Source: Planctomycetota bacterium (GTDB lineage Bacteria > Planctomycetota > Planctomycetia > Pirellulales > UBA7805). From it: a stretch of 64,000 nucleotides of DNA. The DNA is taken from assembly GCA_003389215.1 (NCBI GenBank), contig QQVP01000134.1, positions 9,850 through 73,849 on the forward strand. Direction: 5' to 3'. Shown here one piece after another: positions 5,131 to 27,941 of the stretch (position 1 is the first letter of the stretch; each line of letters begins with the position of its first letter). Position numbers and translations under genes: made by a program. A model generated the notes under the pieces. The model searched no databases, was not told the DNA's origin, and saw only the letters and a program-made list of their open reading frames with translations.

Positions 5131-5785
5131 TGCCGTCGGAAAGGGTGTCGGACACCCGAACCTCGACGGCCCTCATGCCGCTGACGCTGGCGTCGGGTAG
5201 GCGCACCGACGGGTTGCTCTCGTCGACGTAATAGACGTCGATCGTCACGCGCCACTGGTCGAGGTAGCCTTCCGGAATGTGAAAGTCGTTGTGACGAACG
5301 TTGTCGTCCGGGTCCCGCTGACCGAGAGGCTTGCCGTAGACGTCGCGCGGCGGAGACGCGTCGTAGTCGTCGAAGTCATCGATGTCGTCGAAGTATTCTC
5401 GCGTCATTCCCTGCCACTCGCCCGCTTCGGCCCCGAGCGGCCAGTCGTAGGCGGTCCCGCTCACATCGTGGTAGGGCTGGGCCATCACTTCGTCGACGAT
5501 CTGTTCGGCCACCCCGGCGGCCAGCATCTGGTCGAGCGTGTATTGGGTCGTCTGTACGGCGCTCGTCATCGATATCATCAAGGCCGCCCCGGTCACCGTG
5601 GCCACGGTGATGGCGATTAACGCCTCGGCCAGCGTGAAGCCACGACGGTCCGCGACGCGGCGGCTGTGGCCGCTGCGCTGGACGGTTCGGCGGTGATAAC
5701 GACAGAACGGCGGCACGAATCGGCTTCCCAAGGCCTGCGGGTTCCCTCGGCGCGCAGAGTCCCCCAAACTGAGTGACTCACGCAT
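5075..5785 (-). CDS. prepilin-type pseudopilin
   Basis: Canonical RRG|FTLAEALIAITVATVTGAALM motif. Start uncertain (possibly GTG/TTG nearer the motif). Confidence 0.7.
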   Translation of the reverse strand: MRESLSLGDSARRGNPQALGSRFVPPFCRYHRRTVQRSGHSRRVADRRGFTLAEALIAITVATVTGAALMISMTSAVQTTQYTLDQMLAAGVAEQIVDEVMAQPYHDVSGTAYDWPLGAEAGEWQGMTREYFDDIDDFDDYDASPPRDVYGKPLGQRDPDDNVRHNDFHIPEGYLDQWRVTIDVYYVDESNPSVRLPDASVSGMRAVEVRVSDTLSDGSEQELTTIRRVFGYVPSL

Positions 5786-10718: not shown

Positions 10719-11126
10719 ATGAAGACTCTGCTGACCTTCTCCGCCCTCGGGTTCGTGGGGTTCGCCCTCGTGGCCCATGCTCAACCGCCTGAGCACTCGA
10801 CGTACCGGACGGGGGCCGAGACCGCCGACGACCTTTGGCAGCACGATCTGGCCGCGACGCCCGAGATGTGGTTCTATCTGCAAGAGAGAATGCGGAACGA
10901 CGATCCGCAGGTCGTGCTGCGACGCAAGGCGGAGCTGAAGGCCCAACAACGCCGGCAACGAATTGCCGCTCGCAAGGCCCTGGGAGTCTCGACGTCGCGC
11001 CCCAACGTTCGCGATACGGTGTTCGGTGGCTACTACGCGCGATCGTATCCTTACTGGCGGAGCCGCGCGGCCTACGCCTGGTGGAATGATCGAACCGCGC
11101 CGAGCAGCAGCGCGGCGCGCCGCTAG
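10719..11126 (+). CDS. secreted hypothetical protein
   Basis: Internal start MKTLLTFSALGFVGFALVAHA|QPPEH (signal peptide), then Trp/Arg-rich mature region. The longer ORF-track start at 10533 has non-coding-like composition. Confidence 0.55.
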   Translation: MKTLLTFSALGFVGFALVAHAQPPEHSTYRTGAETADDLWQHDLAATPEMWFYLQERMRNDDPQVVLRRKAELKAQQRRQRIAARKALGVSTSRPNVRDTVFGGYYARSYPYWRSRAAYAWWNDRTAPSSSAARR

Positions 11127-11287
11127 AGCGCTTTTCATTTCCCTGTCGCGTCTCGGCGGGCTACGACCGCGTTTGACGTCGTCGACCTGTATCGACGAAT
11201 CTCCTGGATTCGCCTGCTTCGGTCTCCTTGTCCAACTTGCCTCGCGGGCACCGACGACGCGACATCGATCTGAAAAACACTCTAGTC
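11124..11287. repeat. copy A of a conserved ~160-nt intergenic element with terminal inverted repeats (TAGAGCG ... CTCTAG)
   Basis: Shares a near-identical ~90-nt core (GGCGGGCTACGACyGCGTTTGACGTCGTCGACCTGyATCGACGAATCT...TGCTTCGGTCT...CCAAaCTTGCCTCGC...ACGACGCGACA) with 19165-19326. Begins exactly at the TAG stop of the upstream gene. Confidence 0.7.
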
Positions 11288-12002: not shown

Positions 12003-13285
12003 AAGGATCCCAACCCGACGGCCCGTGGTCCGCTCCAGACTTGGAAATCGTCTTGCAGGAATCGGCCGTCCAGCGACCGACCTCTAGGCCCTCTCGGCTT
12101 AGTGACGTAACCGTCGGCACCCCCTTTGCGGGCGGTCGACGTCTCTTCTCCACTCGGTACACCTGACGAGGCAACCAGCAAGTACACTACTCGACTGTGC
12201 GACACCCAAAATAAGCAATTCGTCGGGCGCATTCACATTCGGCCGGAAACTCGTTGCCGCCTATCCACCACGAGGCCTGATACCGGTGGATGACCAGCAA
12301 CTCTTCAGAGACAAAAAAGAGGCTAACTCAGCGTCGAGACTTGTGCCTTCGTCCGCTGCGGTCGCGGACAGGACGCCGTCTATGAGCGTAGCGAAGGAAG
12401 CGAATCGCTGTTGACAACTGTTCGACGGCACTTCATTGAGGATCGAGGCCCTCGGCCAGCGGCAAGGGTCCTACCACGAACGAAGATGCTCCTTCGCATC
12501 GCAAGTTGCTCAGCACGTCCGTGTCCTACCCAATTGCGGTGGCGTAGCCCAGGACGACGAGTCTACTTCACCTCAATCACTCCTCCTCGTTCGATCTCCG
12601 TGCCGGGAAGCTTCTCCGCATCGAACTCTTCTTCCTGTCAAACACGACGATGCCCACAACGTTGTTTGACTCACCACACGCGTCGACTGCGGTGTTCCCT
12701 CGCGGCACGCGGACGACGAGCGGAGACGTGCATCTCGCAGCTCATCGTAGGCACTCAGGCCGCGTAGAGCGCCAGTTTGGTAGCGTACTCTACATCTCGC
12801 AGCGGTGATGTCGTATTTTAATGATTTAGAGGGCCGCGTCTAGCACGATCTGTGTGGCGGCGCGAAATTCCGGTGCCTTCCTGTGGCAGCGCGTTCTGGG
12901 TATCAACGTGTCCGAGTGTCCGAGCGCGCAGCGCGCGACGCTCATCCTGACCCACAAGGTGGCACGCCGCTTTGGTCCGACTCGATGCACTCGCCTCGTG
13001 GCTGGTCGTCGGGCGACTCGGCAGTCGCGGCGTGATTTTGCTACGATGCAGCGGTGAAGAGAAGCGGTTAAGGAAGACCATTACCTACAGCAACCATTTT
13101 GTCGTCCGCATCGGCGACCAACACCGTGCGACAGACTCTCTCCATAATCGCAACTCGCTTGCAACTGTAATCGCCACTCAAACCGGCTCGCCGCTGTAGG
13201 CCCGCAGTCGTAGGCCCGTACCCGCAGGTCCACTGTCGACCAGCAGCTCAATCTCCAGCATCATCCTTCAGCAAAGGGTCCCCTC
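12003..13285. other. 1.28-kb stretch without any credible ORF, between the divergent response regulator and cupin genes
   Basis: Only short ORFs with non-protein-like, Arg/Ser/Cys-rich translations. Local GC is lower than in flanking coding DNA. Contains short direct repeats (GTGTCCGA x2, GTAGGCCCG x2). Confidence 0.4.
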
Positions 13286-14796: not shown

Positions 14797-17700
14797 ATGA
14801 TGTTCGTCTCTCGTCTTTCGCGTTGTCTCCGTACTTTCCCGATCCTCTGTCGAACCGCTTCGTGCGGTGTCCGCGTCGCGACACTCTCGCTGGCGCTGGC
14901 CCTCTGCCTTGCCGCCCAGCCGAGCCTGGCCGCGGCCCAGTTCGAACTTCAGCCCGGCGACCGAATCTGCATCATCGGCAACGCCCAGGCCGAACGCCTG
15001 CAGCACTTTGGCTATTTCGAAACGGCGCTGCACCGGGCGTTCCCCCAGCATGAACTTGTCGTCCGCAACCTCGGCTGGTCGGCGGACGAATTGACGCTCA
15101 AACCCCGTTCGCAGAACTTCGGCAGCCAGGACGACTACCTGCGGCGCGAGAAGGCGGACGTCATCCTGGCCTTTTTCGGCTTCAACGAGTCGTTCGCCGG
15201 ACCCGCGGGCCTGGCGAAATTCAAGCAAGATCTAACGAAGTTCATTCACCACGCGCGAGGCCAGAAGTACAACGGCGAGAGCGCGCCGCGCCTGGCCCTG
15301 ATCTCACCGCTGGCCCACGAGAACCTGGGCGATCCACATCTTCCCAGTGGCGAGGCCCGCAACGAAGTCCTCAAGCTCTACACCCAGGCGATGGCCGACG
15401 TGGCAGCGGCAGAGAAGGTGCCGTTTGCCAACGTGTTCCAGCCTTCTGAGGCGCTCATGAAGCAGGCGGCCGCGCAGGGCCAGCCGCTGACCATCAACGG
15501 CATTCACCTCAATGACCTCGGCTCGCAGAAGATGGGCCCGGCCCTGATGCAGGCGTTGTTCGGAGACAAGGTGGGCCAGGACGTCGTGGCATCCGATTCG
15601 CCGCTTCGCGCCGCGGTCAACGACAAGAACCTGCACTTCTGGTACCACTACCGCGCGGTCAACGGCTTTTACATCTACGGTGGCCGCTCGCCGCTGTGGG
15701 ACAACGTCAAGGTGATGGAAGTCGAGCGACAAAAGATTGCCGACATGGTCTCGCTCCGCGATCGCGTGGTCTGGGACCTGGCCCAAGGCAAGACACCGCA
15801 GCCGATCGACGATACGCAAACCACGCCACTGATGAAGGTCGAGACCAACTTCCATCGCGAGATCGAGTACCTGACGCCGGAAGATCAGATCAAGACATTC
15901 AACATCCCCGAAGGCTTCGTCGTCGAGCTGTTCGCCTCCGAGCGCGAATTCCCCGAGCTGAAGAACCCGGTGCAAATGGCCTTCGACGCCCACGGACGAC
16001 TCTGGGTCTGCACGATGCCGTCGTATCCGCAGTATCAGCCACCCAGCGAGGTGAACGACAAGCTGCTCATCTTCGAGGATACCGACGGCGACGGGCGGGC
16101 CGACAAGCGAACCGTCTTTGCCGACGGGCTCCATGTACCGACCGGCTTCGAGCTCGGCCATGATGGAGTCTACCTGGCCCAGCAGCCGAACCTGATGTTC
16201 CTCAAGGACACCGACGGCAACGACGTCGCCGACGAGCGGACGATTATCCTGCACGGCTTCGACTCGGCCGACTCGCACCACTCGATCAGCGCCTTTACCT
16301 GGGGGCCGGGCGGAGCCCTCTATTTTCAGGAGGGCACTTTTCACCACTCGCAAATCGAGACGCCCCACGGTCCCGTGCGGGTGAAGAACGCCGGCGTCTT
16401 TCGCTATGAGCCGAAGAGCGAGAAGCTTGATGTCTTCGTCTCCTATCCGTTCGCCAATCCTTGGGGCCACATCTTCGACGCCTGGGGCCAGAACTTTGTG
16501 GCCGATGCCTCGGGCGGTTCGAACTACTTCGCCGCGGCCTTCTCCGGCCACGTCGAGTATCCCCGCAAGCATCGCCGGATGAACGAGTTTTTCCGTCGCG
16601 AATTTCGTCCCACCGCCGGCTGCGAGATTGTCTCGAGCCGCAACTTCCCCGCAGAGATGCAGGGCGACTACTTGCTCAACAACTGCATCGGATTCCGGGG
16701 TATCGGACGCTACAAGTTCAAGGAGGATGGTTCCGGTCTGGCCGCCACCACGCAGGGGCCGCTGCTGCAGTCCGACGATCCGAACTTCCGCCCGGTCGAT
16801 CTCGAGTTCGGGCCCGACGGGGCGCTTTACTTCGTCGATTGGTACAACCCGTTGATCGGCCACATGCAGCACTCGCTTCGCGATCCCAAACGCGATCATC
16901 GCCACGGCCGCATCTGGCGTCTTCGCAATACGAAGCAGCCGCTGACCGAGCCCGCCAAGATTGCCGGGGCGACGATCTGGGAATTGATCGACCTGCTCTC
17001 CGCTCCCGAGCTTCGTACCCGCTATCGGGCCCGACGCGAACTGGCCCAGCGGGACGAGCAAGAGGTTGCCGACGCGCTCGTGCATTGGGCCACCACGCTC
17101 AGCGGCTCGACCCTGAAGAAGGGCGTCTACCAGGATCAGCTCGAAGCGCTTTGGATGCATCAGACCATCGACGTCGTGAACGAGACGCTGCTGCGCGAGG
17201 TACTCCGTTCGCCCGATCCGCGTGCCCGCGCCGCGGCGACGCGCGTGCTGTGCTACTGGCGCGATCGGATCGACTCGGCGATCGAGCTGCTGACGATTCA
17301 GGCCGGCGATCGACACCCACGCGTGCGGCTCGAGGCGGTTCGTGCGGCCAGCTTTTTTAAGGACCCCCGCGCAACGGAGATCGTGCTCGAATCGCTCGTC
17401 CACCCGCAGGACTACTATCTCGAATACACGACGGGCGAAACGCTGACGACGCTCCGCGACTTCGAGTTCGGCTTGGTCGGATTGCTCAAGAGCGGGCGAC
17501 TGCCGACGGAGCGAATACCGTTCGTCATTCGCCTGGCCGCCAAGCGTGGCAACAGCGACGACCTGGGCTACTTGTTCGATCTGGCGGTCGCCGACGACTC
17601 GCTCTCGGTCGAAGCCCGACGGGCCGCACTCGAGGGGCTCCGCGAAGCGGTACGCTACCGCAACGTACGGCCCAACGCCGACTATCGCCCGCTGGCCGAC

Positions 17701-19167
17701 CTGATCCTGCGGTTGCGTGACGACAACCGCAAGCCGGCCCTCATGGCAGCGCTGAAGCTCATCGGCCTGTTACGCGTCAGGGCGGCTGAGCCGCAGCTCA
17801 TCGAACTGGCCCTCGACGATCAACTCGCCGGCGCAATCCGTCGTGCGGCACTCGATGTCCTCGTGGGATTCAACTCCAACCGAGGACGCGCCGCCATCGT
17901 CAAGCTCACGTCGCCCGATCGTCCGCTTGCCGAACGTTACATGGCCATTGGCGTGCTCACGCGGGTCGACGTGGCGGAAGCGGCCCGGCGAGCCGGTCAG
18001 GCGCTGACAGAGGCCGACGGAGCGACCGACCCCGCCAGGCTGATCCAGGCATTCCTGCAGCGGCCCGAGGGAGTCAAACAACTGGCCGCCGCGCTCGAAG
18101 GCGTCGAGCTCGACCAGGATGTCGCGAAACTCGCCCTACGGGCCATGTACGCGGTCGGTCGTAGCGATGCGGAACTGACCAGCATGCTCACCAAGGCCGC
18201 CGGCATTCAGACCCAAGCCGCAGAGCTAAGCGACGAGGAAGTCGCCAAGCTGGAGTCCGCCGTTCGCAACTCGGGCGATCCGGCCCGCGGAGAGCAAGTA
18301 TTTCGCCGCGCCGATTTGAGCTGCATGAACTGTCACGCCCTGGGCGGGGTTGGCGGCGGCGTGGGACCCGAGCTGACCGCCGTCGGCTCGAGTTCGCCGG
18401 TGAAGTACCTGATCAACGCGATTCTGCTGCCGGACAAGGAAGTCAAGGAAGAGTTTCGCATGGCGCACGTCTACACGGCCGACGGCCGCGCGCTCAAGGG
18501 CATCATTCACGAAGACGGCGAAGACCGGCTCGTGCTGAAGGATGCCACCGGACGCCGCACCGCCATCGCGAAGGCCGACATCGACGATCGCGAAGACGGC
18601 GGCTCGCTGATGCCCAAGGGCCTCGTTCAGTTCATGACGCAGCGAGAGCTCGTCGACCTGGTTCGCTTTCTTTCCGAGCTCGGCCGCGACGAGAGCTACA
18701 AGGTTCGCAACACCCCCACGGTGCGGCGCTGGCGGGTGCTGGCCGAAGTCGACTCCGAGCTGACCCGCGAGGTGCCCAACGAGGAAGTCTTTACTGACAA
18801 GGTGCTGGAGCTCGACGGCAGCTCGTGGCGGGCCGCCTATTCGATGACCGGCGGGACGCTGCCGCTCGACGAGTCGGTGGCCCCGGCCGACCAGGACGTG
18901 CTCTACCTGCAGTTCGAAATCGACGTCGACTTCGCCGGCCAGCTCGACATCATCGCCGACTCGCCAGCGGGGCTGACCATGTGGGCCGACGATGTGCAGC
19001 TCGACTTCGCCGAGCGAGAGCCCAAGACGGTGGGCGACTTCGCAGAGGGCCGGCACCGGATTACGATTCGCGTCGATCGCACGCGGCGTGACACCGACAC
19101 GCTGCGCATCGACCTGCGTCGGATCGAGGGCTCGCGAACCCGCGCACGCTTGGTCGCGGGGGTTTAG
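14797..19167 (+). CDS. large secreted multidomain protein: SGNH/GDSL-like hydrolase domain, PVC-type membrane-bound dehydrogenase (beta-propeller) domain, HEAT repeats, C-terminal cytochrome c domain
   Basis: Start at MMFVSRLSRCLRTFPILC... (signal). ICIIGNAQAERL...GWSADE (SGNH-like); FVVELFASEREFPELKNPVQMAFDAHGRLWVCTMPSYPQYQP (Pirellula/Verrucomicrobium dehydrogenase N-terminal domain); many HEAT-like repeats; CMNCHALGG heme-binding CXXCH. The upstream in-frame ORF extension 14176-14796 is non-coding-like. Confidence 0.8.
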   Translation: MMFVSRLSRCLRTFPILCRTASCGVRVATLSLALALCLAAQPSLAAAQFELQPGDRICIIGNAQAERLQHFGYFETALHRAFPQHELVVRNLGWSADELTLKPRSQNFGSQDDYLRREKADVILAFFGFNESFAGPAGLAKFKQDLTKFIHHARGQKYNGESAPRLALISPLAHENLGDPHLPSGEARNEVLKLYTQAMADVAAAEKVPFANVFQPSEALMKQAAAQGQPLTINGIHLNDLGSQKMGPALMQALFGDKVGQDVVASDSPLRAAVNDKNLHFWYHYRAVNGFYIYGGRSPLWDNVKVMEVERQKIADMVSLRDRVVWDLAQGKTPQPIDDTQTTPLMKVETNFHREIEYLTPEDQIKTFNIPEGFVVELFASEREFPELKNPVQMAFDAHGRLWVCTMPSYPQYQPPSEVNDKLLIFEDTDGDGRADKRTVFADGLHVPTGFELGHDGVYLAQQPNLMFLKDTDGNDVADERTIILHGFDSADSHHSISAFTWGPGGALYFQEGTFHHSQIETPHGPVRVKNAGVFRYEPKSEKLDVFVSYPFANPWGHIFDAWGQNFVADASGGSNYFAAAFSGHVEYPRKHRRMNEFFRREFRPTAGCEIVSSRNFPAEMQGDYLLNNCIGFRGIGRYKFKEDGSGLAATTQGPLLQSDDPNFRPVDLEFGPDGALYFVDWYNPLIGHMQHSLRDPKRDHRHGRIWRLRNTKQPLTEPAKIAGATIWELIDLLSAPELRTRYRARRELAQRDEQEVADALVHWATTLSGSTLKKGVYQDQLEALWMHQTIDVVNETLLREVLRSPDPRARAAATRVLCYWRDRIDSAIELLTIQAGDRHPRVRLEAVRAASFFKDPRATEIVLESLVHPQDYYLEYTTGETLTTLRDFEFGLVGLLKSGRLPTERIPFVIRLAAKRGNSDDLGYLFDLAVADDSLSVEARRAALEGLREAVRYRNVRPNADYRPLADLILRLRDDNRKPALMAALKLIGLLRVRAAEPQLIELALDDQLAGAIRRAALDVLVGFNSNRGRAAIVKLTSPDRPLAERYMAIGVLTRVDVAEAARRAGQALTEADGATDPARLIQAFLQRPEGVKQLAAALEGVELDQDVAKLALRAMYAVGRSDAELTSMLTKAAGIQTQAAELSDEEVAKLESAVRNSGDPARGEQVFRRADLSCMNCHALGGVGGGVGPELTAVGSSSPVKYLINAILLPDKEVKEEFRMAHVYTADGRALKGIIHEDGEDRLVLKDATGRRTAIAKADIDDREDGGSLMPKGLVQFMTQRELVDLVRFLSELGRDESYKVRNTPTVRRWRVLAEVDSELTREVPNEEVFTDKVLELDGSSWRAAYSMTGGTLPLDESVAPADQDVLYLQFEIDVDFAGQLDIIADSPAGLTMWADDVQLDFAEREPKTVGDFAEGRHRITIRVDRTRRDTDTLRIDLRRIEGSRTRARLVAGV

Positions 19168-19326
19168 AGCGCGTCTCGTTTATCTCTAGCGTCTTGGCGG
19201 GCTACGACTGCGTTTGACGTCGTCGACCTGCATCGACGAATCTACCAATTCGTCTGCTTCGGTCTGGTGGCCAAACTTGCCTCGCCTACGCCAACGACGC
19301 GACACCTGTCCTAGACACGCTCTAGT
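19165..19326. repeat. copy B of the conserved intergenic element with terminal inverted repeats (TAGAGCGCG ... CGCTCTAG)
   Basis: See copy A. Spans exactly from the TAG stop of the upstream plus-strand gene to the CTA (TAG) stop of the convergent minus-strand gene. Confidence 0.7.
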
Positions 19327-20605
19327 CCCCGTAGATATGATCCCGCTTGGCCTTGTTGTAGGCCAGCTTTTCCGCCTGCGTCATGGCGGCGAAGTTGGGC
19401 GGGTTCTCCGGATCGTAGACCACCGCCTTCGACCCGTCGCCGCAGCCACCCGGGGCCCCGTTGCAGCCGCAGCCGCAATCTTTCTTCTCTTTCTTGCCTA
19501 CCCTCGTGCGCCCAGGCTGCGGGCTACTTTCGCTGGACCCCACCGGCACGCCCGCCGGTACGACGACCTGACCACCACTGGCGTAGCTCATCACGGCCGT
19601 CTGCAACTGCAAGTCATCGGCCAGCGATCGCAGGGGACGGATGCCCAGCTTCTGCAGCACGCCGTGATAGGCCCGCACTGCTTCCTCGGGCTCGATCTCG
19701 CCGTCGGCCAGCATACGCAGGAACTGTACAAAGGCCAGCTGGCACTCCGAGTTGTTGATTTTGCGGCCGAACAGCGCCGCCCGGGCGCCGTACTTCTTGG
19801 CTTCGTAAAGCAGCTTGAAGGCGTCGAGCGTGGTGCCGCTGCTGCCGCCCAAAATGCCGACGACCAGGTGCGGGTCGTAGGCCACCAGGTCTTCCATCGC
19901 CTGGGGACCCTGATACACCATCTTCAGAAAGACCGGCCGTCCCGGCATCGCCACGCCCGCCAGGGTCCGTGCGATGTGGTCGTTCACAAAATCCGGAATC
20001 ATCTCGGGCGAGAGCCCGTCGGGCATGTTCGGATTGAAGATTTCCAGAAAGTGGCGAAACCCCTTTCGCTCCGCCTCGATGCGAAAACAGCGGTACGCCT
20101 CCAGCGTGCGGAGGTCGTCGTCCAGGCGGTTGTTGAACGTGACGCTATAGAGGCCCAGGTTCGCGCCACGAAAACGGTCTTCTGCACTGCAGTCGACGTG
20201 GCCGCACTGGATGTGATCGAGCGTGGCCGTGCGAAACGGCTGAGCGGGCGCTTCGAGATACTTGCCGCCGCGGACGACAAACACATCGCTGGCGTCGTTG
20301 GCCCGTGCGGCCGGCGTGATCGGCGAGTCGTCGAACAGTCGTTCGACGATGGTGAGGACGTCGTTCGTGCTGGCCGACATCAACATGATGTCGACGAGCC
20401 CCTGCCGGACGATCTGCCGGATCTGTTCGCGGTACTCACCCAGCGTCTTGAAACGAACCTCGTCGGCGTGGCTCTCCGGCGATTTGCCAGGCGCCCCGAT
20501 GCCAAAGGCCATGTCGGCGTCCTTGGCGTCGGCCAGGATGAAGTCCTTCGCGCCGTGCGGGTCGGCGTGAATGTTGGCCAGTTTTTGGTCGAGGGTCTTC
20601 TGCAT
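19322..20605 (-). CDS. DhnA/FbaB-type class I aldolase family protein with Cys-rich C-terminal tail
   Basis: LFGRKINNSE and FLKMVYQG motifs parallel E. coli FbaB (ILGRKAFKKS, LVKLNH). The tail KKDCGCGCNGAPGGCGDG is followed by a putative amphipathic helix. It is the last gene of the BMC operon. Confidence 0.6.
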   Translation of the reverse strand: MQKTLDQKLANIHADPHGAKDFILADAKDADMAFGIGAPGKSPESHADEVRFKTLGEYREQIRQIVRQGLVDIMLMSASTNDVLTIVERLFDDSPITPAARANDASDVFVVRGGKYLEAPAQPFRTATLDHIQCGHVDCSAEDRFRGANLGLYSVTFNNRLDDDLRTLEAYRCFRIEAERKGFRHFLEIFNPNMPDGLSPEMIPDFVNDHIARTLAGVAMPGRPVFLKMVYQGPQAMEDLVAYDPHLVVGILGGSSGTTLDAFKLLYEAKKYGARAALFGRKINNSECQLAFVQFLRMLADGEIEPEEAVRAYHGVLQKLGIRPLRSLADDLQLQTAVMSYASGGQVVVPAGVPVGSSESSPQPGRTRVGKKEKKDCGCGCNGAPGGCGDGSKAVVYDPENPPNFAAMTQAEKLAYNKAKRDHIYGD

Positions 20606-20684: not shown

Positions 20685-21608
20685 CTAGCGGGCGGCTCCG
20701 TTTTGCAGGGCGGCCACCACGCGATCGGTGATCGTCTGAATCAGGGCCTCCTGGTCGGCGGTCGCCGCGGGCGCGGCCGCCACGGGCGAACCGTTTGACC
20801 TTGCGACGCCCGTGCTGCCTTGCGGAGCCATCGAGGCCCCGACTCGCTTCATAGTCGGCGGGGCCTCGAACGCCCGACGCTCCACACCGACGCTCGTCCA
20901 GCTGTCGCGGAACAGATCGTTGGCACACACGTCGCAGTTCTCCATCCGCTTTTCGTTGCGCGGATCGCGGAAGCCCCACTTGGCTTTCGTCTCCAGCAGC
21001 TCGCGCTCTTCCTGCTCGGTAAAGTAGTTGACCTTGCCCAGGTCGCGGGCGAGCATCAGCATGCGGCAATAGGCGTCGAGCACCTCGGTCCACCAGTAGG
21101 CCTGCTCGACCGTTTCTCCCCAGCTGACCGTCCCGTGATTGGCCAGGATCACCACGTTCGAGTCCTTCACGACCGGGATGATCGTGTCGGCGAACTTCTG
21201 CGTGCCGGGCGTTTCGTACTTGGTGATCGGCACGTCGCCCAGGAATATCTCAACCTCGGGCAATACGCACTGCGGAATCGGCTCGCGGGCAATCGCAAAC
21301 GCGGTGGCGTGGGGCGGATGGCAGTGGACGATACTGTTGATGTCGTCGCGTTCTTTGTAGATCTGCAGGTGCAGCAGGGCCTCGCTGCTCCGCTTCTTGC
21401 GCCCGGCCAGCTGGTTGCCCTGCATGTCGATCAGGCAGATGTCGTCAGGTTTGAGGAAACCCTTCGAGTGCATTGTCGGCGTGCAGAGAACCTCGCGGTC
21501 GTTGAGTCGATACGTGATGTTGCCGTCGTTGGCGGCGGCAAATCCCTTGTTGTAGAGTCGGCGACCGATGTCGCAGATTTCCTGTTTGATCCGGTGGGCG
21601 TTCTGCAT
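20685..21608 (-). CDS. class II aldolase (L-fuculose-/L-rhamnulose-1-phosphate aldolase-like) with C-terminal encapsulation peptide
   Basis: Class II aldolase/adducin fold (NDGNITYR...HCHPPHATAFA...ANHGTVSWG). ~90-aa C-terminal extension ends in Ala/Pro linker plus amphipathic helix DQEALIQTITDRVVAALQN. Confidence 0.85.
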   Translation of the reverse strand: MQNAHRIKQEICDIGRRLYNKGFAAANDGNITYRLNDREVLCTPTMHSKGFLKPDDICLIDMQGNQLAGRKKRSSEALLHLQIYKERDDINSIVHCHPPHATAFAIAREPIPQCVLPEVEIFLGDVPITKYETPGTQKFADTIIPVVKDSNVVILANHGTVSWGETVEQAYWWTEVLDAYCRMLMLARDLGKVNYFTEQEERELLETKAKWGFRDPRNEKRMENCDVCANDLFRDSWTSVGVERRAFEAPPTMKRVGASMAPQGSTGVARSNGSPVAAAPAATADQEALIQTITDRVVAALQNGAAR

Positions 21609-21716
21609 GGCAATAGTTCCTGGCGGCTTTTCGTGATTCCTGGTTCGCAGTGCGTTACTTGGACTTATCGGTTTCTGGTTCGTCGTGGTGTCGGGACGTT
21701 GGTTGTGGGCATCGGC

Positions 21717-22007
21717 CTACACATCGTCGCAGACGTGTATCGTGTCGAGGATCGCCGCGTTGTAGGCGTCGATCGGTTTCATCTCGGGGTGAAAAGGCAT
21801 GGCCGCTTCACGACTCTCGCTCAACGCGATGAGCGTGTCGGGGCCCGCCCCCAATTCGTCGTAAACGACCAGGGGATCGGCCGTCGTCGTCGCAGGATCG
21901 CCCAGCTCCGCTTCGCTGAGCGGCACCGCCAGGCGATAGGAACCGCCGGCCAGCGTCGGATGACTGCGGCTGAGCGTGACGGTTCCAATGACCTTGGCAA
22001 TTCGCAT
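21717..22007 (-). CDS. BMC vertex protein (EutN/PduN/CcmL family, BMC-P)
   Basis: MRIAKVIGTVTLSRSHPTLAGGSYRLAVPL...PLVVYDELGAGPDTLIALSESREAAMPF; start at internal Met. Confidence 0.85.
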   Translation of the reverse strand: MRIAKVIGTVTLSRSHPTLAGGSYRLAVPLSEAELGDPATTTADPLVVYDELGAGPDTLIALSESREAAMPFHPEMKPIDAYNAAILDTIHVCDDV

Positions 22008-22026
22008 CGTTCTTACTTCCGGGGCC

Positions 22027-22284
22027 TTAGTCACAAATCCCCATGACACTCCACCGCACGGGCGTCGTGTCGCTGTCTAACAACTCGCGCGTGTACCGCC
22101 CGTCGGTCGTGAGCAGCACGCGTTGTCCCGCGCCGGCGCCCAGGGCATCGACGACGATGACCGGTTCGCCGTCGGCCGAGCGGCCATCGGCCATCAACAG
22201 GCGCACGATGAGCAGCTTCCAGCCCTCCATCGAGGCGTGCTTGACCGTGGCGGTCGCGGTGCCGATAACGCGGGCGAGCTGCAT
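22027..22284 (-). CDS. BMC vertex protein (BMC-P) paralog
   Basis: MQLARVIGTATATVKHASMEGWKLLIVRLL...PVIVVDALGAGAGQRVLLTTDG. Its ATG overlaps the TAA of the upstream ALDH gene (TAATG). Confidence 0.85.
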   Translation of the reverse strand: MQLARVIGTATATVKHASMEGWKLLIVRLLMADGRSADGEPVIVVDALGAGAGQRVLLTTDGRYTRELLDSDTTPVRWSVMGICD

Positions 22285-23783
22285 TACGCTTTCCCCAAAA
22301 TCCGCAAGTCGTCGATCAGCGAGCAACGTCGCTCGCGGGTGAAGGTCAGCGGCGTCGTCACGCCCTCGCCGGTCGGGGTGGCGATGGAGAACGACAGATA
22401 GCCTTCGCCGCCCAGCCCGAGCGACGACATGCACGGTCCGTTCTTGACGAACAGGGTCGTATCCATCACGCGACCCATGGTCGTCATGTTTCGCACGTTG
22501 TTCGAGTGGATGATCGCCGTGTGGCGGAAGCCGTGTTCGTGTTTCTGGGCCAGGGCAATCGCCTCGTCGACGTCGCGGCATCGCACGAAGGGCAAGAAGG
22601 GCATCATCTGCTCGACCGGCACGAAGGGATTTGTCTCGTCGGTCTCGCCAAAAATCATCAGCGTGTCGGCCGCGATCGGACGTCCCGCGCCGCGGGCCAG
22701 CACCGACGCGTCCTTGCCCAGGAACTCCTTGCACGGCACGTCGTGCCGATCGGCCCCTTCGCCCACCGAAGTGATGGCGACGCTGGTCAGTTTGTCAATC
22801 TCGCTACAACTGAGCCGCACGGCGCCGGCCCGTTCCATCGACTGCAGCATGCGGTCGAACACGGAGTCGACGACGAAGACCTCCTTCTCGGCGATACAGA
22901 GCAGATTGTTGTCGTACGAGCCGCCTTGAATGATGGCCCGCGCGGCCCGGTCGAGATCGGCCGTCTCGTCGACGACAACCGGCGGATTGCCGGGCCCCGC
23001 CACGATGGCTCGCTTGCCACTGTTGAGCGCCGCTCGCGCCACGGCCGGTCCGCCGGTCACGCAGATCAACTTGACGCCGCGATGGCTGAAGATGGCGTTG
23101 GCCGAGTCGAGTGTCGGCTCGGCGATGACGCAGATCAGGTTGTCGATTCCCAGGTCTTTGGCAATCGCCTGGTTGAATCGCCGTACGCCCTCGGCCGCCA
23201 CGCGTTTGCCGCTGGGGTGCGGATTCACGACCAGCGTGTTCCCGCCGGCGATCATGCTCACGGCGTTGCCGGTAATGGTGGGCAGGCTGTGGGTGACCGG
23301 GGTAATGGCACCAATGACACCAAAAGGGGCGTGCTCGATCACGGCCAGGCCGTGGTCGCCGCTGTAGACGTCGCTCCGCATGAACTCGACGCCGGGCGTC
23401 TTCAGGCCGAGCGTCTTGAGCTTCTCGATCTTGTGTTCCAGCCGGCCGATCTTGGTCTCGTTCATCTCCATCGTGCCGAGTTCGACCGACTGATCGATCG
23501 AGATGCGGCGGATGTGCTTGATGATTCGCTCGCGGTCTTCCAGCGTGCAAGCACTGAGTTGTTCGAAGGCTTCCGTGGCGGCGGCCACCGCTTCGTCGAC
23601 GTCGTGAAACACGCCGTGGCGTCCGTGATAGGACGGGCTCGTGACGGGGGCGGGTACCGCTGCGGCAGCGGAGGCCGTGGACGCACGCGCCGTCGAGGGC
23701 ACGACCGACGGGCCTGCGGGGCTCCCCATCTCCTGTAGGACTTGGGCAACGACGTCACGGACCAGGGCTTCGTTGACGCTCAT
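22284..23783 (-). CDS. CoA-acylating aldehyde dehydrogenase (PduP/EutE-like) with N-terminal encapsulation peptide
   Basis: N-terminal amphipathic helix VNEALVRDVVAQVLQEM followed by a Pro/Ala/Ser linker. ALDH core with catalytic-Cys motif NLLCIAEKE. Confidence 0.9.
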   Translation of the reverse strand: MSVNEALVRDVVAQVLQEMGSPAGPSVVPSTARASTASAAAAVPAPVTSPSYHGRHGVFHDVDEAVAAATEAFEQLSACTLEDRERIIKHIRRISIDQSVELGTMEMNETKIGRLEHKIEKLKTLGLKTPGVEFMRSDVYSGDHGLAVIEHAPFGVIGAITPVTHSLPTITGNAVSMIAGGNTLVVNPHPSGKRVAAEGVRRFNQAIAKDLGIDNLICVIAEPTLDSANAIFSHRGVKLICVTGGPAVARAALNSGKRAIVAGPGNPPVVVDETADLDRAARAIIQGGSYDNNLLCIAEKEVFVVDSVFDRMLQSMERAGAVRLSCSEIDKLTSVAITSVGEGADRHDVPCKEFLGKDASVLARGAGRPIAADTLMIFGETDETNPFVPVEQMMPFLPFVRCRDVDEAIALAQKHEHGFRHTAIIHSNNVRNMTTMGRVMDTTLFVKNGPCMSSLGLGGEGYLSFSIATPTGEGVTTPLTFTRERRCSLIDDLRILGKA

Positions 23784-23889
23784 GATGGTTGTCTCGCTTG
23801 CTGCTTAATCGTGTGTCTTTGTTCAATCTGGCTCGGCGTTGAGTCGGGTTCGGCGGCAGCGGCGATTGGCCGCGCGGCCGGTCAGGGCG

Positions 23890-24201
23890 TTACTGCTCGC
23901 GCGAGTAAACGCAGTGGTTCTCCACGTGTACCGTGTCGACGATGCCGATAATCACCGCGTCGATCGGCAGGTTCTTCGTCTCGGGCGTCAAGCGGGCGCT
24001 CGACCCCTGCGTGATGAGGACGTACTCGCCCTCGCCGGCGCCGATCGTGTCGATCGCCACGAAGGTACGACCCGTGGTGGTCAGACTCTTCCGCTTCTCG
24101 GCTTCCAGGCGATACGGTTCGACGACCATCAGCTTGTGACCGACGACCTCGCCGACCTTCTGTGTCGCCACTACCGAGCCGGTAACTTTTGCTACGAACA
24201 T
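23890..24201 (-). CDS. BMC vertex protein (BMC-P) paralog
   Basis: MFVAKVTGSVVATQKVGEVVGHKLMVVEP...TFVAIDTIGAGEGEYVLITQGSSARL; start at internal Met. The long ORF-track extension is non-coding-like. Confidence 0.85.
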   Translation of the reverse strand: MFVAKVTGSVVATQKVGEVVGHKLMVVEPYRLEAEKRKSLTTTGRTFVAIDTIGAGEGEYVLITQGSSARLTPETKNLPIDAVIIGIVDTVHVENHCVYSREQ

Positions 24202-24244
24202 GTTCGGGTTTCCCGTAGAAGGACGTGGCCCTCTTTCTGAATTG

Positions 24245-24278
24245 CCAGCGCCTAAGTTTCCAGCGCCTAGTTTTCCAG
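24245..24278. repeat. tandem direct repeat CCAGCGCCTAAGTTT / CCAGCGCCTAGTTTT (+CCAG) spanning the ackA stop codon
   Basis: Two adjacent 15-nt units differing at 2 positions. Shares a CTAG(G)CGC core with the repeat upstream of ackA. Confidence 0.5.
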
Positions 24279-25451
24279 GTGTTCTCTTGCTTGCCGGGCG
24301 ACGATGATCTCCTCGTTCGTCGGCACGACCCAAACTTGCACGCGACTCTCCGCCGCGTTGATTTGCGACTCGCCGCGGGCCGCTTCGTTGGCCGCCTGGT
24401 CGAGCACGATGCCAAGCTCGCTCAGCTCCGCACAGACGGCCGCCCGAATGCGGGTGCCGTTCTCGCCAATGCCGCCGGTGAAGACGATCGCATCGGCCCC
24501 ACCCAGCTCGACCAGGTACGCACCCAGGTAGTGCCGCACGCTGGCGATGAACATGTCGAGGGCCAGCTGCGCCTGGTGGTTGCCAGCCGCGGCGGCCTCT
24601 TCCAAGTCGCGAATGTCGCCACTGACTCCGCTGACGCCCAGCAGGCCTCCTTCGTTGGCCATCGCGGCCAGCACCTCGTCGAGCGTCTTCTCCGTCCGCT
24701 TGATGAGCTGGGGCAGGGCATAGGGATCGAAGTCGCCGACGCGATTGTTGTGCGGCAAGCCCGACTGAGGACTCATGCCCATACTCGTGGCGACGCTCGC
24801 CCCGTCGCGAATCGCGGCCAGGCTGCTCGAACCCCCGAGGTGACAGGAGATGATCCGCAAGTCGCGGCGACCCAACAGTTCGTTCATCCGCGTGGCAATG
24901 TAGCAATGGCTCGCGCCGTGGAAGCCCCACTTCCGCACATGAAACTCTTCGGCCCACGAACGCGGAATCGCATACGTCCGATTGCACTCGGGAATCGAAG
25001 CGTGGAAGCCGGTCTCGAACGCCGCCACCAGCGGAATCTCGGGCAACTGCTCGCGCAACTGCCGTATGGCCGCGATGTAGGGTGGGTTGTGGGCCGGGGC
25101 TACTTCGTTCATCTCTTCCATCGCTGCGAGGACGTCCTCATCAATCCGCTGCACGCCGCTCAGGCGGCCGCCGTGAACCGCCTTGAAACCGATCGCCGAA
25201 ACTTCGCCGGCATCCGTCAGGCATCCGTGTTCGGTGTCGGTCAATTGGGCCAGGCACCGTCGCACCGCCTCGGCATGATCGGGCACTTCGGCCACCAGCT
25301 CGTCGCGATACTCGCCGATCTCGGCCACGCAGCGACTTTCCGCCGAGCCGATCCGATCGATTCCGCCACGGGCCAGCTGCCGCTCGTCCGTCATGTCGAA
25401 CAGACGATACTTGAAGCTCGTCGAGCCCAAGTTGGCGACCAGGACCTTCAT
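24267..25451 (-). CDS. ackA: acetate (propionate) kinase
   Basis: [20 protein letters not shown]... full-length acetate kinase. SD AAGGAG 9 nt upstream of the ATG. Confidence 0.9.
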
Positions 25452-25466
25452 GCCGTGTGCTCCTTG

Positions 25467-25506
25467 CTGGTGACTGGGGGCGCTAGTGACGGGGGGCGCT
25501 AGTGAC
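25467..25506. repeat. tandem direct repeat (GGGGGCGCTAGTGAC x2 plus partial third GCTGGTGAC) immediately upstream of ackA
   Basis: On the coding (minus) strand: GTCACTAGCGCCCCCC GTCACTAGCGCCCCC AGTCACCAGC, then AAGGAG SD, then ATG. Confidence 0.5.
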
Positions 25507-25598
25507 CGAGAGGGCCGCCTGTGTGACGGATGCCGCTCAGGCCCTTGCCGCGCGGGCGCGATTCGCCTGCGACCGCGTCACGTCCTTCAAATAGGCCG

Positions 25599-25868
25599 TT
25601 ACTTCAGGTACGCCTCGACCAGACCTTCGGCCGGACGGGGGATCACGTGACTCGAGACCAGCTCGCCGACCTGGTTGGCCGCGTTGGCACCGGCTTCGAC
25701 CGCCGCGCGCACGCTGCCGACGTCGCCTTTGACGATCGTGGTCAACAGGGCGCCGCCGATCTGCACGCGCTTCACGATTTCGACGTTCGCCGCTTTGGCC
25801 ATCGCGTCGGTCGCCTCGACCAACGGCACCAGGCCGCGGGTTTCAATCATTCCGATTGCATGTTCCAT
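25599..25868 (-). CDS. BMC shell protein, hexamer type (BMC-H, PduA/EutM-like)
   Basis: AIGMIETRGLVPLVEATDAMAKAANVEIV...GDVGSVRAAVEAG. Confidence 0.9.
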   Translation of the reverse strand: MEHAIGMIETRGLVPLVEATDAMAKAANVEIVKRVQIGGALLTTIVKGDVGSVRAAVEAGANAANQVGELVSSHVIPRPAEGLVEAYLK

Positions 25869-25982
25869 TGTGTTGTTCCTCAGAGTGTTTTTGAGTCAAG
25901 TTTGCTGAGTGTTTGTTTGCCGGAGGGTCCGTGACGTACGACCCGCAGTGAGGGCCTCAACGTCGACCCCTCGATCACCGCA

Positions 25983-26276
25983 CTACTTGGCGCCCGCCGC
26001 CGGACCGAGGGCAATGTTCAGATCCTCGTGTGGGCGGGGAATCACTTGCACGCTGATCACTTCGCCGACGCGGCCGGCCGCACTGGCTCCGGCGTCGGTC
26101 GCCGCCTTCACCGCCGCCACGTCGCCGGTCACAAAGGCCGACACCATCCCGCTGCCGACTTTGTCCCAGCCCAGAAACTGGACATTGGCAGCCTTCATCA
26201 TCGCGTCGCTCGCCTCGACCAGGGCAATAAAACCCTTCGTCTCGATCATGCCGAGCGCCTCTTGAACTTTTGCCAT
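25983..26276 (-). CDS. BMC shell protein, hexamer type (BMC-H) paralog
   Basis: [36 protein letters not shown]...[13 protein letters not shown]; start at internal Met. Confidence 0.9.
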
Positions 26277-26402
26277 AGCAAGAATCTCCCAAAGAACCAA
26301 AAACCATTTCCTCGAGTGAGGAGTCTGTCAACCAAAGTTGTCTCGTTCGGTGTCCCTTCGCGGGGCGGCTCGGGTCCTCGTCCAACCCGCCGCCCGTTTC
26401 AT

Positions 26403-27068
26403 TTACTGTTTCAATAACTCGCACTTCGTGGCGTGTTCCAAGTCGGCCGCGTTGCCTTCGTCGGTGTCGAGGTGAACTTCCAACTTGCTGGTGGCGTCGG
26501 CCCGCACCAGCAGATCTTCGAGCACAACGCTGCAGCTCGACTCGATGCGCAGGTTCATGCGATCGCCGTTGGCCACGCCAAATCGCTCCGCGTCGGCAAA
26601 GTTCATGTGGACGTGTCGCTCGGCGCGAATCACGCCTTGCTCGAGCTCCACGACACCTGCCGGACCGACCAAGACACAGCCCGGCGTACCTTCGATCTTG
26701 CCGCTGGCGCGAACCGGCGCGTCGATGCCTAGCGAGATGGCGTCGGTAAAGGCCAGCTCCACCTGGCCGTGCGGTCGCGTGGGACCCAGAATGCGGACGG
26801 TCGGCAGCATCCGCTTCCGCGGGCCGACCAGCATCACGGTCTCTTCGGCCGCGTAGAAGCCGTCCTGATAGAGTTCCTTCATGGGCGTCAGCGTACGGCC
26901 CGGTCCAAATAGCGTCTCAACCTGCTCATCGGTCAGGTGGACGTGACGTGCCGAAATGCTCACAACCAGTTCGCGCTCCGGCGCGGCCGCCGGAGCCGGG
27001 GAACGCAACACAATGTCACGGACGATGCGTTCGACGGTGTCACGATCGATGGGGGCGGCATTAATCAT
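26403..27068 (-). CDS. pduL: PduL-type phosphotransacylase with N-terminal encapsulation peptide
   Basis: N-terminal amphipathic helix [17 protein letters not shown] plus PAPAAAP linker, then PduL-fold repeats (ISARHVHL..., [14 protein letters not shown]). Start could also be the upstream Met at 27089. Confidence 0.85.
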
Positions 27069-27920: not shown

Positions 27921-27941
27921 AGAACCGACGAGAAGATGCAA

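What the first reader, a model, noticed from the sequence alone, without database searches (positions are those of the whole stretch)
11124..11287. Conserved ~160-nt intergenic element with terminal inverted repeats, two copies (second at 19165-19326)
Both copies begin exactly at the TAG stop of the upstream plus-strand gene with TAGAGCGC and end with (CG)CTCTAGTCC, giving terminal inverted repeats TAGAGCG/CGCTCTA. They share a ~90-nt core at >90% identity: GGCGGGCTACGACyGCGTTTGACGTCGTCGACCTGyATCGACGAATCT, TGCTTCGGTCT, CCAAaCTTGCCTCGC, ACGACGCGACA. The core contains a 7-bp hairpin TCGTCGA(cctgya)TCGACGA and a C(UUCG)G tetraloop-like motif. Flanking segments differ, with possibly compensatory changes (CCTGGA...TCC vs ACCA...TGGT). 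Both copies lie between convergent genes. This fits either a MITE-like mobile element or a conserved structured RNA such as an sRNA or terminator module. It is not a recognisable family from sequence alone.
Basis: seen in the sequence. Interest (0 to 1): 0.7.

Follow-up and report, generated by a model that had tools for sequence, protein, structure and literature searches.

The report
Small mobile repeat landing on stop codons
The two 160-base look-alike segments are copies of a small non-coding jumping-DNA element (a MITE) found at two dozen or more places in an uncultured planctomycete; it inserts at TA, usually within CTAG, so it often lands on gene stop codons and rebuilds them, which makes it an ordinary kind of element with a neat twist.

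Summary
Window 11124-11284 and 19165-19324 are two copies, about 80-85% identical, of a 160-162 bp element with sharp ends. A metagenome scan found 21 more copies (20 full-length, one truncated) on 19 contigs of one population, all with unrelated flanks. The copies fall into an older A subfamily (mean 90% identity) and a young B subfamily (94-100%). Every copy has the form (C/T)TA|GAGCG...CGCTC|TA(G), with about 35-bp terminal inverted repeats and a TA on each side. The whole unit folds into one long imperfect hairpin. The closest available relatives (84-87% protein identity) keep the same gene order but have short unrelated spacers at both window sites. Their orthologous proteins end at the same residues. 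One orthologue keeps an intact CGC-TAG-G empty site and another GTT-TAG-G. The element is therefore a MITE, moved in trans by a transposase that duplicates TA in a YTAR/CTAG target. That transposase is IS630/Tc1-mariner-like, or less likely IS5/IS427-like. Because the element starts and ends with G/C, insertion into a stop-codon TA rebuilds TAG on both strands. This explains why 12 of 23 copies abut stop codons. There is no Rfam match, no terminator signature and no covariation in the inner core. The autonomous partner was not found. Verdict: a new member of a known kind, of modest interest.

The parts
11124..11284 (+). MITE copy A (A-type subfamily), 161 bp including a flanking TA at each end (11124-11125 and 11283-11284)
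   Evidence: nhmmer E=2.6e-53 against the family profile
19165..19324 (+). MITE copy B (B-type subfamily), 160 bp including a flanking TA at each end (19165-19166 and 19323-19324)
   Evidence: E=1.4e-49; 94-97% identical to six B-type copies at unrelated loci
11125..11158 (+). Left terminal inverted repeat (arm) of copy A. As given, the span covers alignment columns 2-35, so its first base (11125) is the A of the flanking TA.
   Evidence: pairs with 11249-11283; helices 1-2, 95% of cells paired, 8 pairs with changes on both sides
11249..11283 (+). Right terminal inverted repeat (arm) of copy A. As given, the span covers alignment columns 130-164, so its last base (11283) is the T of the flanking TA.
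19166..19199 (+). Left terminal inverted repeat (arm) of copy B. Its first base (19166) is the A of the flanking TA.
19289..19323 (+). Right terminal inverted repeat (arm) of copy B. Its last base (19323) is the T of the flanking TA.
11124..11126 (+). TAG stop codon of the 135-aa gene (10719-11126), made of the target TA plus the first base (G) of the element
   Evidence: The orthologue in L042 ends ...VRR* with CGC TAG G at the equivalent position and has no element.
19165..19167 (+). TAG stop codon of the DUF7133/HEAT/GDSL gene (14797-19167), made of the target TA plus the first base of the element
   Evidence: Orthologues in L041 and L036 also end ...GV*. L036 has GTT TAG G with no element.
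19322..19324 (-). TAG stop codon (CTA on the + strand) of the 427-aa gene (19322-20605, minus strand), made of the last base of the element plus the target TA
   Evidence: Orthologues end YGT* (L036) or YGEIS* (L041).
11196..11212 (.). Apical hairpin of the rod-like fold, CGAATC-TCCTG-GATTCG, which is the centre of the imperfect palindrome in copy A
11179..11198 (+). It is present, but it is invariant in the family partly by ascertainment, so it has no covariation support.

Best explanation
The element is a miniature inverted-repeat transposable element (MITE): a 158-bp non-coding, non-autonomous DNA transposon. It has imperfect terminal inverted repeats of about 35 bp (5'-GAGCGY...RCGCTC-3'). 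A DDE transposase encoded elsewhere in the genome moves it in trans. It inserts at a TA dinucleotide, preferentially inside YTAR and especially CTAG, and duplicates the TA. This is the signature of IS630/Tc1-mariner elements, so that family is the most likely mobiliser. Because the element begins with G and ends with C, the junctions read TA|G on the top strand at the left end and TA|G on the bottom strand at the right end. An insertion into the TA of a TAA or TAG stop codon therefore rebuilds a TAG stop for a gene reading in from either side. CTAG is about six-fold depleted in this 64% G+C window, and many of the CTAG sites left are stop codons. Insertions therefore pile up harmlessly at gene 3' ends, often between convergent genes. 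Shown here: the multicopy family, sharp boundaries, inverted repeats, flanking TA and YTAR context, absence from orthologous sites, conserved protein C-termini and a young subfamily. Inferred: the identity of the transposase, the cut-and-paste mechanism, and any effect of the long hairpin on transcripts. The confidence given is for the MITE reading as a whole; within it, I put IS630/Tc1-mariner-type mobilisation at roughly 0.5 and IS5-family-type at roughly 0.2-0.3.
For: Copy number and dispersal. A scan of metagenome contigs for a 23-base core pattern returned 19 contigs, all from one assembly (ERZ869936) at 30-37x coverage. nhmmer found 20 full-length copies and one truncated copy on them, in both orientations, with similarity ending exactly at the element ends.

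Ends. In 22 full copies the base before the element is C (17) or T (5). The left dinucleotide is TA in 16. The right dinucleotide is TA in 21. The base after is G in 19.

Inverted repeats. The outer helices (columns 2-35 with 130-164) are about 95% paired. Eight pairs changed on both sides, including private double changes in L020.

Empty sites. Relatives with 84-87% identical flanking proteins keep synteny. They have unrelated spacers of 65 bp (copy B site, L040/L041) and 55-73 bp (copy A site, L042/L044/L045). There is no family hit anywhere in those loci.

Stop codons. Orthologous proteins end at the same residues..GV*..YGx*..RR*. L042 keeps CGC TAG G and L036 keeps GTT TAG G where the window has CGC TA|GAGCG and GTT TA|GAGCG. 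In 12 of 23 copies the terminal TA(G/A) is the stop of a high-GC3 ORF.

Target availability. The window has 33 CTAG against 212 expected. Five of these belong to the two copies and many of the rest sit at stop codons.

Subfamilies. B-type copies at unrelated loci are 94-100% identical, A-type 81-98%, and A against B 80%.

Literature. Bacterial MITEs are defined by size under 200 bp, TIRs, TA at the termini, TSD and long stem-loop transcripts (PMC2229807). IS630/Tc1 elements insert only at TA and duplicate it. IS630 prefers TA within CTAG (PMC2170065 and its reference to Tenzen & Ohtsubo 1991).
Against: No autonomous element with matching inverted repeats was found in about 0.3 Mb examined, and no transposase was found in the window. 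The transposase family therefore rests on the target signature alone. The flanking TA is imperfect in 7 of 22 copies. Six of those are at the left end, an asymmetry I cannot explain. A 4-bp CTAG duplication (IS5-like) is not rigorously excluded: it conflicts in 10 of 22 copies. The empty sites come from relatives that are only 84-87% identical in protein, not from near-isogenic strains. The one 99.6% identical strain (L012) has both copies, so no recent movement was seen directly. Copy B requires that the two convergent stop codons overlapped on one TA before insertion, and this cannot be verified. All but four copies (the two window copies, L024a and L024c) were ascertained by an exact core pattern. 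This inflates apparent core conservation and undercounts divergent copies.
Confidence: 0.85

Rival explanations
1. It is the same kind of element (a MITE) but derived from and moved by an IS5-family transposase. Candidates are the IS427/IS1031/IS5 groups, which as I recall have GAG/GG-type ends and YTAR targets. The duplication could then be the 4-bp CTAG rather than TA.
For: The element starts with GAG, and the target context is YTAR/CTAG. An IS5-derived bacterial MITE with a 4-nt CTAG/YTAA duplication is documented (MITEPsy1, PMC3189936). When the target is CTAG, the 2-bp and 4-bp models predict identical empty sites.
Against: Under a 4-bp duplication the two flanking tetranucleotides should match, but they differ in 10 of 22 copies. 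For example, five copies have TTAG on the left and CTAG on the right. The inner bases (G at position 3, C at position -3) are 20/22 and 22/22 conserved like the element body. The outer bases vary: 17/22 C on the left and 19/22 G on the right. No IS5-like gene was seen in the sequence examined.
Confidence: 0.2
2. It is a REPIN- or PATE-like palindromic element. A HUH (RAYT or IS200/IS605-type) transposase moves it as a single-stranded DNA hairpin, so the long hairpin itself would be the substrate.
For: The whole unit is a rod-like imperfect palindrome: -63 to -78 kcal/mol, z -4 to -6, and 51 pairs on the minus strand. Arm complementarity is kept through double changes. Locations are extragenic and often between convergent genes. 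REP-type repeats have been reported in Planctomycetes (PMC3733652).
Against: REPs are 20-40 bp units tagged by GTAG or CGTC at one end, and they lack target duplications (PMC3733652). This element is 160 bp, symmetric, ends in GAG/CTC and has TA on both sides in a palindromic YTAR context. That fits staggered cleavage by a DDE enzyme. It does not fit insertion 3' of an asymmetric tetranucleotide.
Confidence: 0.05
3. It is primarily a functional structured RNA or a bidirectional terminator/3'-UTR module, conserved for its function rather than spread by transposition.
For: The predicted hairpins are strong and significant on both strands. The minus-strand RNA is about 13 kcal/mol more stable in 22 of 22 copies. 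The element sits at the 3' ends of convergent genes. The core diverges less between subfamilies than the arms do.
Against: There is no Rfam family at gathering or at a permissive threshold. There is no hairpin-plus-T-run and no promoter excess. The inner helices show only invariant or one-sided changes. The element is absent from both orthologous intergenic regions in relatives, whose genes are otherwise conserved. It is inserted in both orientations next to unrelated genes. The strand asymmetry rests on a few G.U pairs inherited from the consensus, so it is not 22 independent observations.
Confidence: 0.05

Closest known systems
Correia / NEMIS elements (CREE) of Neisseria
   Same: Both are about 105-155 bp non-coding repeats with roughly 24-26 bp terminal inverted repeats and TA at both termini (target duplication). 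Both have many dispersed copies, mostly intergenic. Transcripts fold end-to-end into a long stem-loop. No cognate transposase is known (PMC2229807).
   Different: There is no sequence similarity. Host phylum and G+C content differ. Correia elements carry an IHF site and promoter-like ends, and their RNA is an RNase III substrate; none of this was tested or seen here. Frequent stop-codon abutment is a feature documented here.
RUP of Streptococcus pneumoniae (IS630-Spn1-derived MITE) and other IS630-derived bacterial MITEs such as Nezha
   Same: It is a small MITE inserted at TA, with inverted repeats and about 100 intergenic copies. It is the standard example of trans-mobilisation by an IS630-family transposase (PMC2229807).
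   Different: For RUP the parent IS is identified by TIR similarity. Here no parent IS was found. RUP is 107 bp with 9-bp TIRs, whereas this element is 160 bp with about 35-bp arms and a palindromic interior.
IS630 of Shigella sonnei (target preference)
   Same: It inserts at TA, preferentially within 5'-CTAG-3', and duplicates TA (Tenzen & Ohtsubo 1991, as cited in PMC2170065). Here the context is C/T-TA-G in most copies.
   Different: IS630 is an autonomous element of about 1.15 kb (size from my own recollection) with a transposase gene. This element has no coding capacity, and its TIRs were not compared with any IS630-family member.
MITEPsy1 of Pseudomonas syringae (IS5-family-derived)
   Same: It is a 100-nt MITE with 18-nt TIRs that inserts at CTAG or YTAA (PMC3189936).
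   Different: MITEPsy1 duplicates 4 nt. Here a 4-nt duplication conflicts in 10 of 22 copies, and 2-nt TA fits better.
REP / REPIN elements (RAYT-associated)
   Same: They are extragenic palindromic repeats that form hairpins, often at 3' ends of genes, with compensatory maintenance of the stems.
   Different: REP units are 20-40 bp, tagged by GTAG or CGTC, and lack target duplications (PMC3733652). This element fails those features.

Membership tests
Bacterial MITE (as defined in Delihas 2008, PMC2229807) | Small (under ~200-300 bp) and without coding capacity | tested here: met
   Length is 160-162 bp. Four of six frames of the A-type and all six frames of the B-type carry stops. A six-frame peptide query found no protein among 5.8e9.
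Bacterial MITE (as defined in Delihas 2008, PMC2229807) | Terminal inverted repeats | tested here: met
   The arms are about 35 bp (columns 2-35 with 130-164), 95% paired, against 29-41% when the partner is slid by 1-3 columns.
Bacterial MITE (as defined in Delihas 2008, PMC2229807) | Target-site duplication / TA at both termini | tested here: met
   TA is on the left in 16/22 copies and on the right in 21/22. The flanking context is Y (22/22) and G (19/22). The orthologous empty sites CGC TAG G and GTT TAG G carry one TA.
Bacterial MITE (as defined in Delihas 2008, PMC2229807) | Many dispersed copies with unrelated flanks, in both orientations | tested here: met
   23 copies at 23 distinct sites on 20 stretches of DNA (the window plus 19 contigs). 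Loci match the window only across the element.
Bacterial MITE (as defined in Delihas 2008, PMC2229807) | Filled versus empty sites between genomes | tested here: met
   Both window sites are empty in syntenic loci of the nearest relatives. Caveat: the relatives are only 84-87% identical in protein, and the 99.6% identical strain L012 is filled at both sites.
Bacterial MITE (as defined in Delihas 2008, PMC2229807) | Transcript or strand folds into a long end-to-end stem-loop | tested here: met
IS630/Tc1-mariner-derived MITE | Exclusive TA target with 2-bp TA duplication | tested here: inconclusive
   TA fits better than a 4-bp duplication (7 against 10 conflicting copies of 22). The two cannot be separated at CTAG sites without isogenic empty sites.
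IS630/Tc1-mariner-derived MITE | TIRs matching those of an autonomous IS630-family element in the same or a related genome | tested here: inconclusive
   No solo TIR or IS was found in about 0.3 Mb (the one 14-mer match lies inside a 1220-aa ORF). No transposase domain was found in window genes. The whole genome could not be scanned.
REP / REPIN (RAYT-mobilised) | 20-40 bp palindromic unit tagged by GTAG or CGTC at one end; no target duplication | tested here: not met
   The unit is 160 bp, its ends are GAG/CTC, and TA sits on both sides. The definition is from PMC3733652.
REP / REPIN (RAYT-mobilised) | Associated RAYT gene flanked by the repeats | not tested
None was seen in the window.
Any Rfam RNA family | Covariance-model score at or above the gathering threshold | tested here: not met
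   There were 0 hits in the window at gathering. At E<=10 the only hit was a chance ar9 match outside the element, 15.6 bits against a gathering score of 45.
Intrinsic (Rho-independent) terminator | G+C-rich hairpin followed directly by a T/U run | tested here: not met
   No terminator-like site overlaps either copy.

The most novel reading that the evidence does not exclude
The family may be more than a passive parasite. Its G...C termini make insertion into a stop-codon TA self-repairing on both strands, which gives it a 'safe harbour' at gene 3' ends. Once there, the 75-bp rod-like hairpin, more stable in the minus-strand RNA in every copy, could be co-opted as a U-tract-independent bidirectional 3'-end module. 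It might act as a terminator, an RNase III site or an mRNA stabiliser that insulates convergent genes in a phylum whose termination signals are poorly known.
Probability: 0.15. Interest if true: 0.5.

Novelty: new member of a known kind. Interest (0 to 1): 0.3.

Why it matters
The result explains a striking pattern, identical 160-nt blocks that start exactly at stop codons, by ordinary transposon biology rather than by a new RNA class. It has practical value for annotating planctomycete MAGs. The element breaks short-read assemblies: two Logan contigs end inside copies. It defines gene 3' ends, and it could be mistaken for a conserved sRNA. The stop-codon-regenerating geometry (TA target plus a terminal G) is a neat, testable example of how a MITE can be nearly neutral in a compact, high-G+C genome where TA and CTAG are rare. 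The young B subfamily (up to 100% identical copies) suggests an active transposase in this lineage. That transposase could be sought as a genetic tool for Planctomycetes.

Tried and rejected
1. The genome-contig scan (185,579 species representatives) with the 20-mer CGTTTGACGTCGTCGACCTG gave 11 hits in unrelated phyla. All matched only the 20-mer itself, so they are chance. The source species is apparently not in that set.

2. A six-frame translation of both subfamily consensuses was used as a protein query against 5.8e9 proteins, hoping to catch ORFs called across other copies or a parent IS. Nothing scored at E<=1e-3.

3. A search for solo TIRs or a parent IS in all fetched DNA gave one 14-nt exact match (L033:9900). 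It lies inside a 1220-aa ORF and was rejected as chance.

4. Pfam scans of 26 window ORFs found no transposase.

5. The viral-contig scan with the core pattern gave 0 hits.

6. A paper search for the assembly and run accessions found nothing.

7. The weak nhmmer hit at window 32337-32371 (E about 0.002) is a 35-nt match inside the Band_7 gene and was rejected as chance.

9. The strand asymmetry of folding is consistent across all copies. It traces to a few consensus G.U pairs, so I do not count it as evidence for an RNA function.

Full report
**Observation**

Window 11124-11284 and 19165-19324 hold two + strand copies of one element. BLASTN gives 82% identity over 141 nt. A 35-nt core pattern with up to 3 mismatches hits only these two places, with 0 expected in shuffles. 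Each copy starts with the TAG that ends the upstream + strand gene. For copy A this is a 135-aa gene with no Pfam domain. For copy B it is a 1456-aa DUF7133/HEAT/GDSL protein. Each copy lies between convergent genes. In copy B the right-end CTA (19322-19324) is also the stop codon of the minus-strand 427-aa gene. The intergenic space there is therefore the element and nothing else.

**Source**

The window is 100% identical to NCBI MAG GCA_003388515.1 (QQVK01000119.1) and to ENA ERZ869942 NODE_42. It is 99.6% identical to GCA_003390835.1, which carries both copies. Source names and nearest homologues place it in Planctomycetota, close to Pirellulales. G+C content is 64%.

**It is a multicopy dispersed family**

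A 20-mer scan of 185,579 species-representative genomes gave only chance hits. A metagenome scan with GACGTCGTCGACNNNNNTCGACGAATCT returned 19 contigs. All come from one assembly (ERZ869936) and all have 30-37x coverage, so they represent one population. A profile search of those loci found 20 full-length copies and one left-half copy, on both strands. Three copies lie within 12.9 kb in L024. The loci resemble the window only across the element. In the alignment with flanks, similarity stops abruptly at ...(C/T)TA|GAGCG on the left and CGCTC|TA(G)... on the right.

There are two main subfamilies. A-type includes copy A, with mean pairwise identity of 90%. B-type includes copy B, with 94-100% identity; L023 and L032 are identical at different loci. 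A against B is about 80%. This is the pattern of successive amplification bursts. Ascertainment caveat: 19 copies were selected by an exact core match. Core invariance is therefore overstated and divergent copies are undercounted. Among copies found without regard to the pattern, 3 of 5 match it. A few dozen copies per genome is thus a reasonable floor, but that figure is my inference.

**Anatomy**

The outer ~35 nt at each end are inverted repeats (alignment columns 2-35 with 130-164). About 95% of cells are paired there, against 29-41% when the partner is slid by 1-3 columns. Eight pairs changed on both sides. Most of these separate A-type from B-type, but L020 carries private double changes (G-C to C-G at 5/161, C-G to U-A at 18/148).

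The proposed ACCA/TGGT compensation fails because most B-type copies have ACCA without TGGT.

As a whole the element is an imperfect palindrome. Single copies fold at -57 to -74 kcal/mol on the + strand and -67 to -83 on the - strand. For the two window copies, z is -4 to -6 against shuffles. The minus strand forms one rod of 51 pairs, capped by CGAATC(n5)GATTCG. The minus strand is better in 22/22 copies, but this rests on a few consensus G.U pairs that all copies inherited. I do not treat it as independent evidence.

There is no Rfam family at the gathering threshold. At E<=10 the only match is a chance hit outside the element. No hairpin-plus-T-run or promoter consensus overlaps the copies, apart from one weak promoter-like match that spans the right end of copy B.

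**Target site**

Across 22 full copies the base before the left TA is always a pyrimidine (C 17, T 5). The left dinucleotide is TA in 16. The right dinucleotide is TA in 21. The next base is G in 19.

A 4-bp (CTAG) duplication would require the two flanking tetranucleotides to match, and they differ in 10 of 22 copies. The 2-bp TA model has 7 imperfect copies, a rate close to the family's overall ~10% divergence. The inner G and C are conserved like the element body, while the outer bases vary. TA duplication within a YTAR/CTAG target is therefore the better reading, but the 4-bp model is not excluded.

IS630/Tc1-mariner elements insert only at TA and duplicate it. IS630 itself prefers TA within CTAG (PMC2170065, citing Tenzen & Ohtsubo 1991). 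IS5-family MITEs that duplicate CTAG/YTAA also exist (PMC3189936).

**Empty sites and stop codons**

Homologues of the 427-aa protein and of UvrB led to syntenic loci in the nearest available relatives, at 83-87% protein identity.

- Copy B site. L040/L041 have a 65-bp unrelated spacer between the same convergent genes. L036 has an OLD-family nuclease gene there.
- Copy A site. L042, L044 and L045 have 55-73 bp between the 136/138-aa gene and the response regulator. The window has 240 bp, which is the element plus 82 bp.
- The family profile hits nothing in the roughly 45 kb of distinct sequence fetched from these relatives.

The orthologous proteins end at the same residues with or without the element. 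DUF7133 ends ..GV* in all three lineages. The 427-aa protein ends YGD* against YGT*. The 135-aa protein ends ..RR* in both. L042 reads CGC TAG G where the window reads CGC TA|GAGCG. L036 reads GTT TAG G where the window reads GTT TA|GAGCG. The element therefore sits exactly on native stop codons and does not truncate the proteins.

In the wider family, 12 of 23 copies (13 of 46 ends) have their terminal TA(G/A) as the stop of a long high-GC3 ORF. This rests on a crude gene call, so the count is approximate.

**Mechanism proposed**

A trans-acting DDE transposase binds the GAGCGY... inverted repeats and inserts the element at TA with a 2-bp stagger. This is inferred from the signature.

The element begins with G and ends with C, so both junctions read TAG towards the element. 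An insertion into a TAA or TAG stop leaves a TAG stop for genes entering from either side. This follows directly from the sequence.

In this window TA occurs 943 times against 2066 expected, and CTAG 33 times against 212 expected. Five of the 33 CTAG belong to the two copies, and many of the others are stop codons. Target availability plus purifying selection therefore explains the concentration at 3' ends and between convergent genes.

For copy B the model implies that the two stops overlapped on one TA (GTT-TA-G on top, GAC-TA-A on the bottom strand) before insertion. This is consistent with both conserved C-termini but is not directly verifiable.

**What it is not**

It is not a conserved locus-specific RNA, because it is absent at orthologous sites. 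It is not a canonical terminator. It is not a REP/REPIN: the size is wrong, there is no GTAG/CGTC tag, and it has symmetric TA flanks (PMC3733652). It is not an assembly artefact, because it is present in independent NCBI, ENA and Logan assemblies. Two Logan contigs break inside copies.

**Unresolved**

The autonomous partner was not found. There was no solo TIR in about 0.3 Mb, one rejected 14-mer, and no transposase in 26 window ORFs. A six-frame peptide search and a viral-contig scan were empty. No filled/empty pair between near-identical strains was available. Whether the hairpin affects transcripts is untested.

**Comparison and verdict**

The element meets every sequence-level criterion of bacterial MITEs as reviewed by Delihas (PMC2229807): size, TIRs, TA termini, TSD and a long stem-loop. 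It most resembles Correia/NEMIS in architecture and RUP/IS630 in target signature, with no sequence similarity to either. It is a new member of a known kind in a phylum where I found no paper describing a MITE family in the one library search run. Interest is modest. The stop-codon-regenerating geometry and the apparently active young subfamily are the points worth following up.

Noticed in passing
L031:11166-11254: A truncated copy. The left half (model positions 1-89) is intact and abuts the TAG stop of a 477-codon ORF, then the sequence diverges abruptly. The locus ends 72 nt later, so a deletion and an insertion of another element into the MITE cannot be told apart.
   Followed up: partly
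L024:438-599, 5321-5482, 12615-12775: Three copies lie within 12.9 kb of one contig: two A-type and a divergent B-like copy only 69-75% identical to A-type copies (83-86% to B-type). This may be a local hotspot. L024c may represent a third, older lineage.
   Followed up: partly
L015 and L016 (Logan contigs; ends correspond to window 11219 and 19193): Short-read Logan contigs end inside the two window copies, so the repeat breaks k-mer assemblies. MAGs of this lineage are probably fragmented at these elements, and copies are probably undercounted.
   Followed up: no
L036:11684-13642 (the same gene reappears cut at L042:22062-22073): In the 83%-identical relative, the convergent intergenic site that holds copy B in the window instead holds a 652-aa OLD-family nuclease gene (AAA_15/AAA_21 plus OLD-like TOPRIM). 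This is a defence-type gene insertion at the same spot.
   Followed up: no
window 46176-46213, 46222-46255 and 46878-46915: This is a second, unrelated short palindromic repeat (GCCACTkCTGrCTGCTwGyCAGCCAGTGCC), present two to three times on either side of a small gene (46283-46777). The 38-nt copies are 92% identical. It was not found in any other fetched locus.
   Followed up: partly
window 31032-31099: A tandem duplication of a 34-nt unit (CCGTCAATTAGGCAAGCCCGCCGATCAGACAGGT, 82% identity) lies just downstream of the Band_7/SPFH gene.
   Followed up: no
window, whole: There is strong avoidance of TA (943 against 2066 expected) and especially of the palindromes CTAG (33 against 212), TTAA (15 against 67) and TTAG/CTAA. 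Many of the remaining CTAG sites coincide with stop codons.
   Followed up: partly
window ~20685-27959: This is a bacterial-microcompartment gene cluster: class II aldolase, EutN/CcmL, aldehyde dehydrogenase, acetate kinase, and, by synteny with relatives, BMC shell proteins, PTAC and a DeoR regulator. It starts about 1.4 kb from copy B, just past the 427-aa gene. Relatives carry an extra Ldh-like gene between the aldolase and the 436-aa gene.
   Followed up: no
all 22 full copies (alignments A2/A3): The minus-strand RNA is predicted to be about 13 kcal/mol more stable than the plus-strand RNA in every copy. The flanking TA is degraded far more often at the left end (6 copies) than at the right end (1 copy). 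Neither asymmetry is explained.
   Followed up: partly
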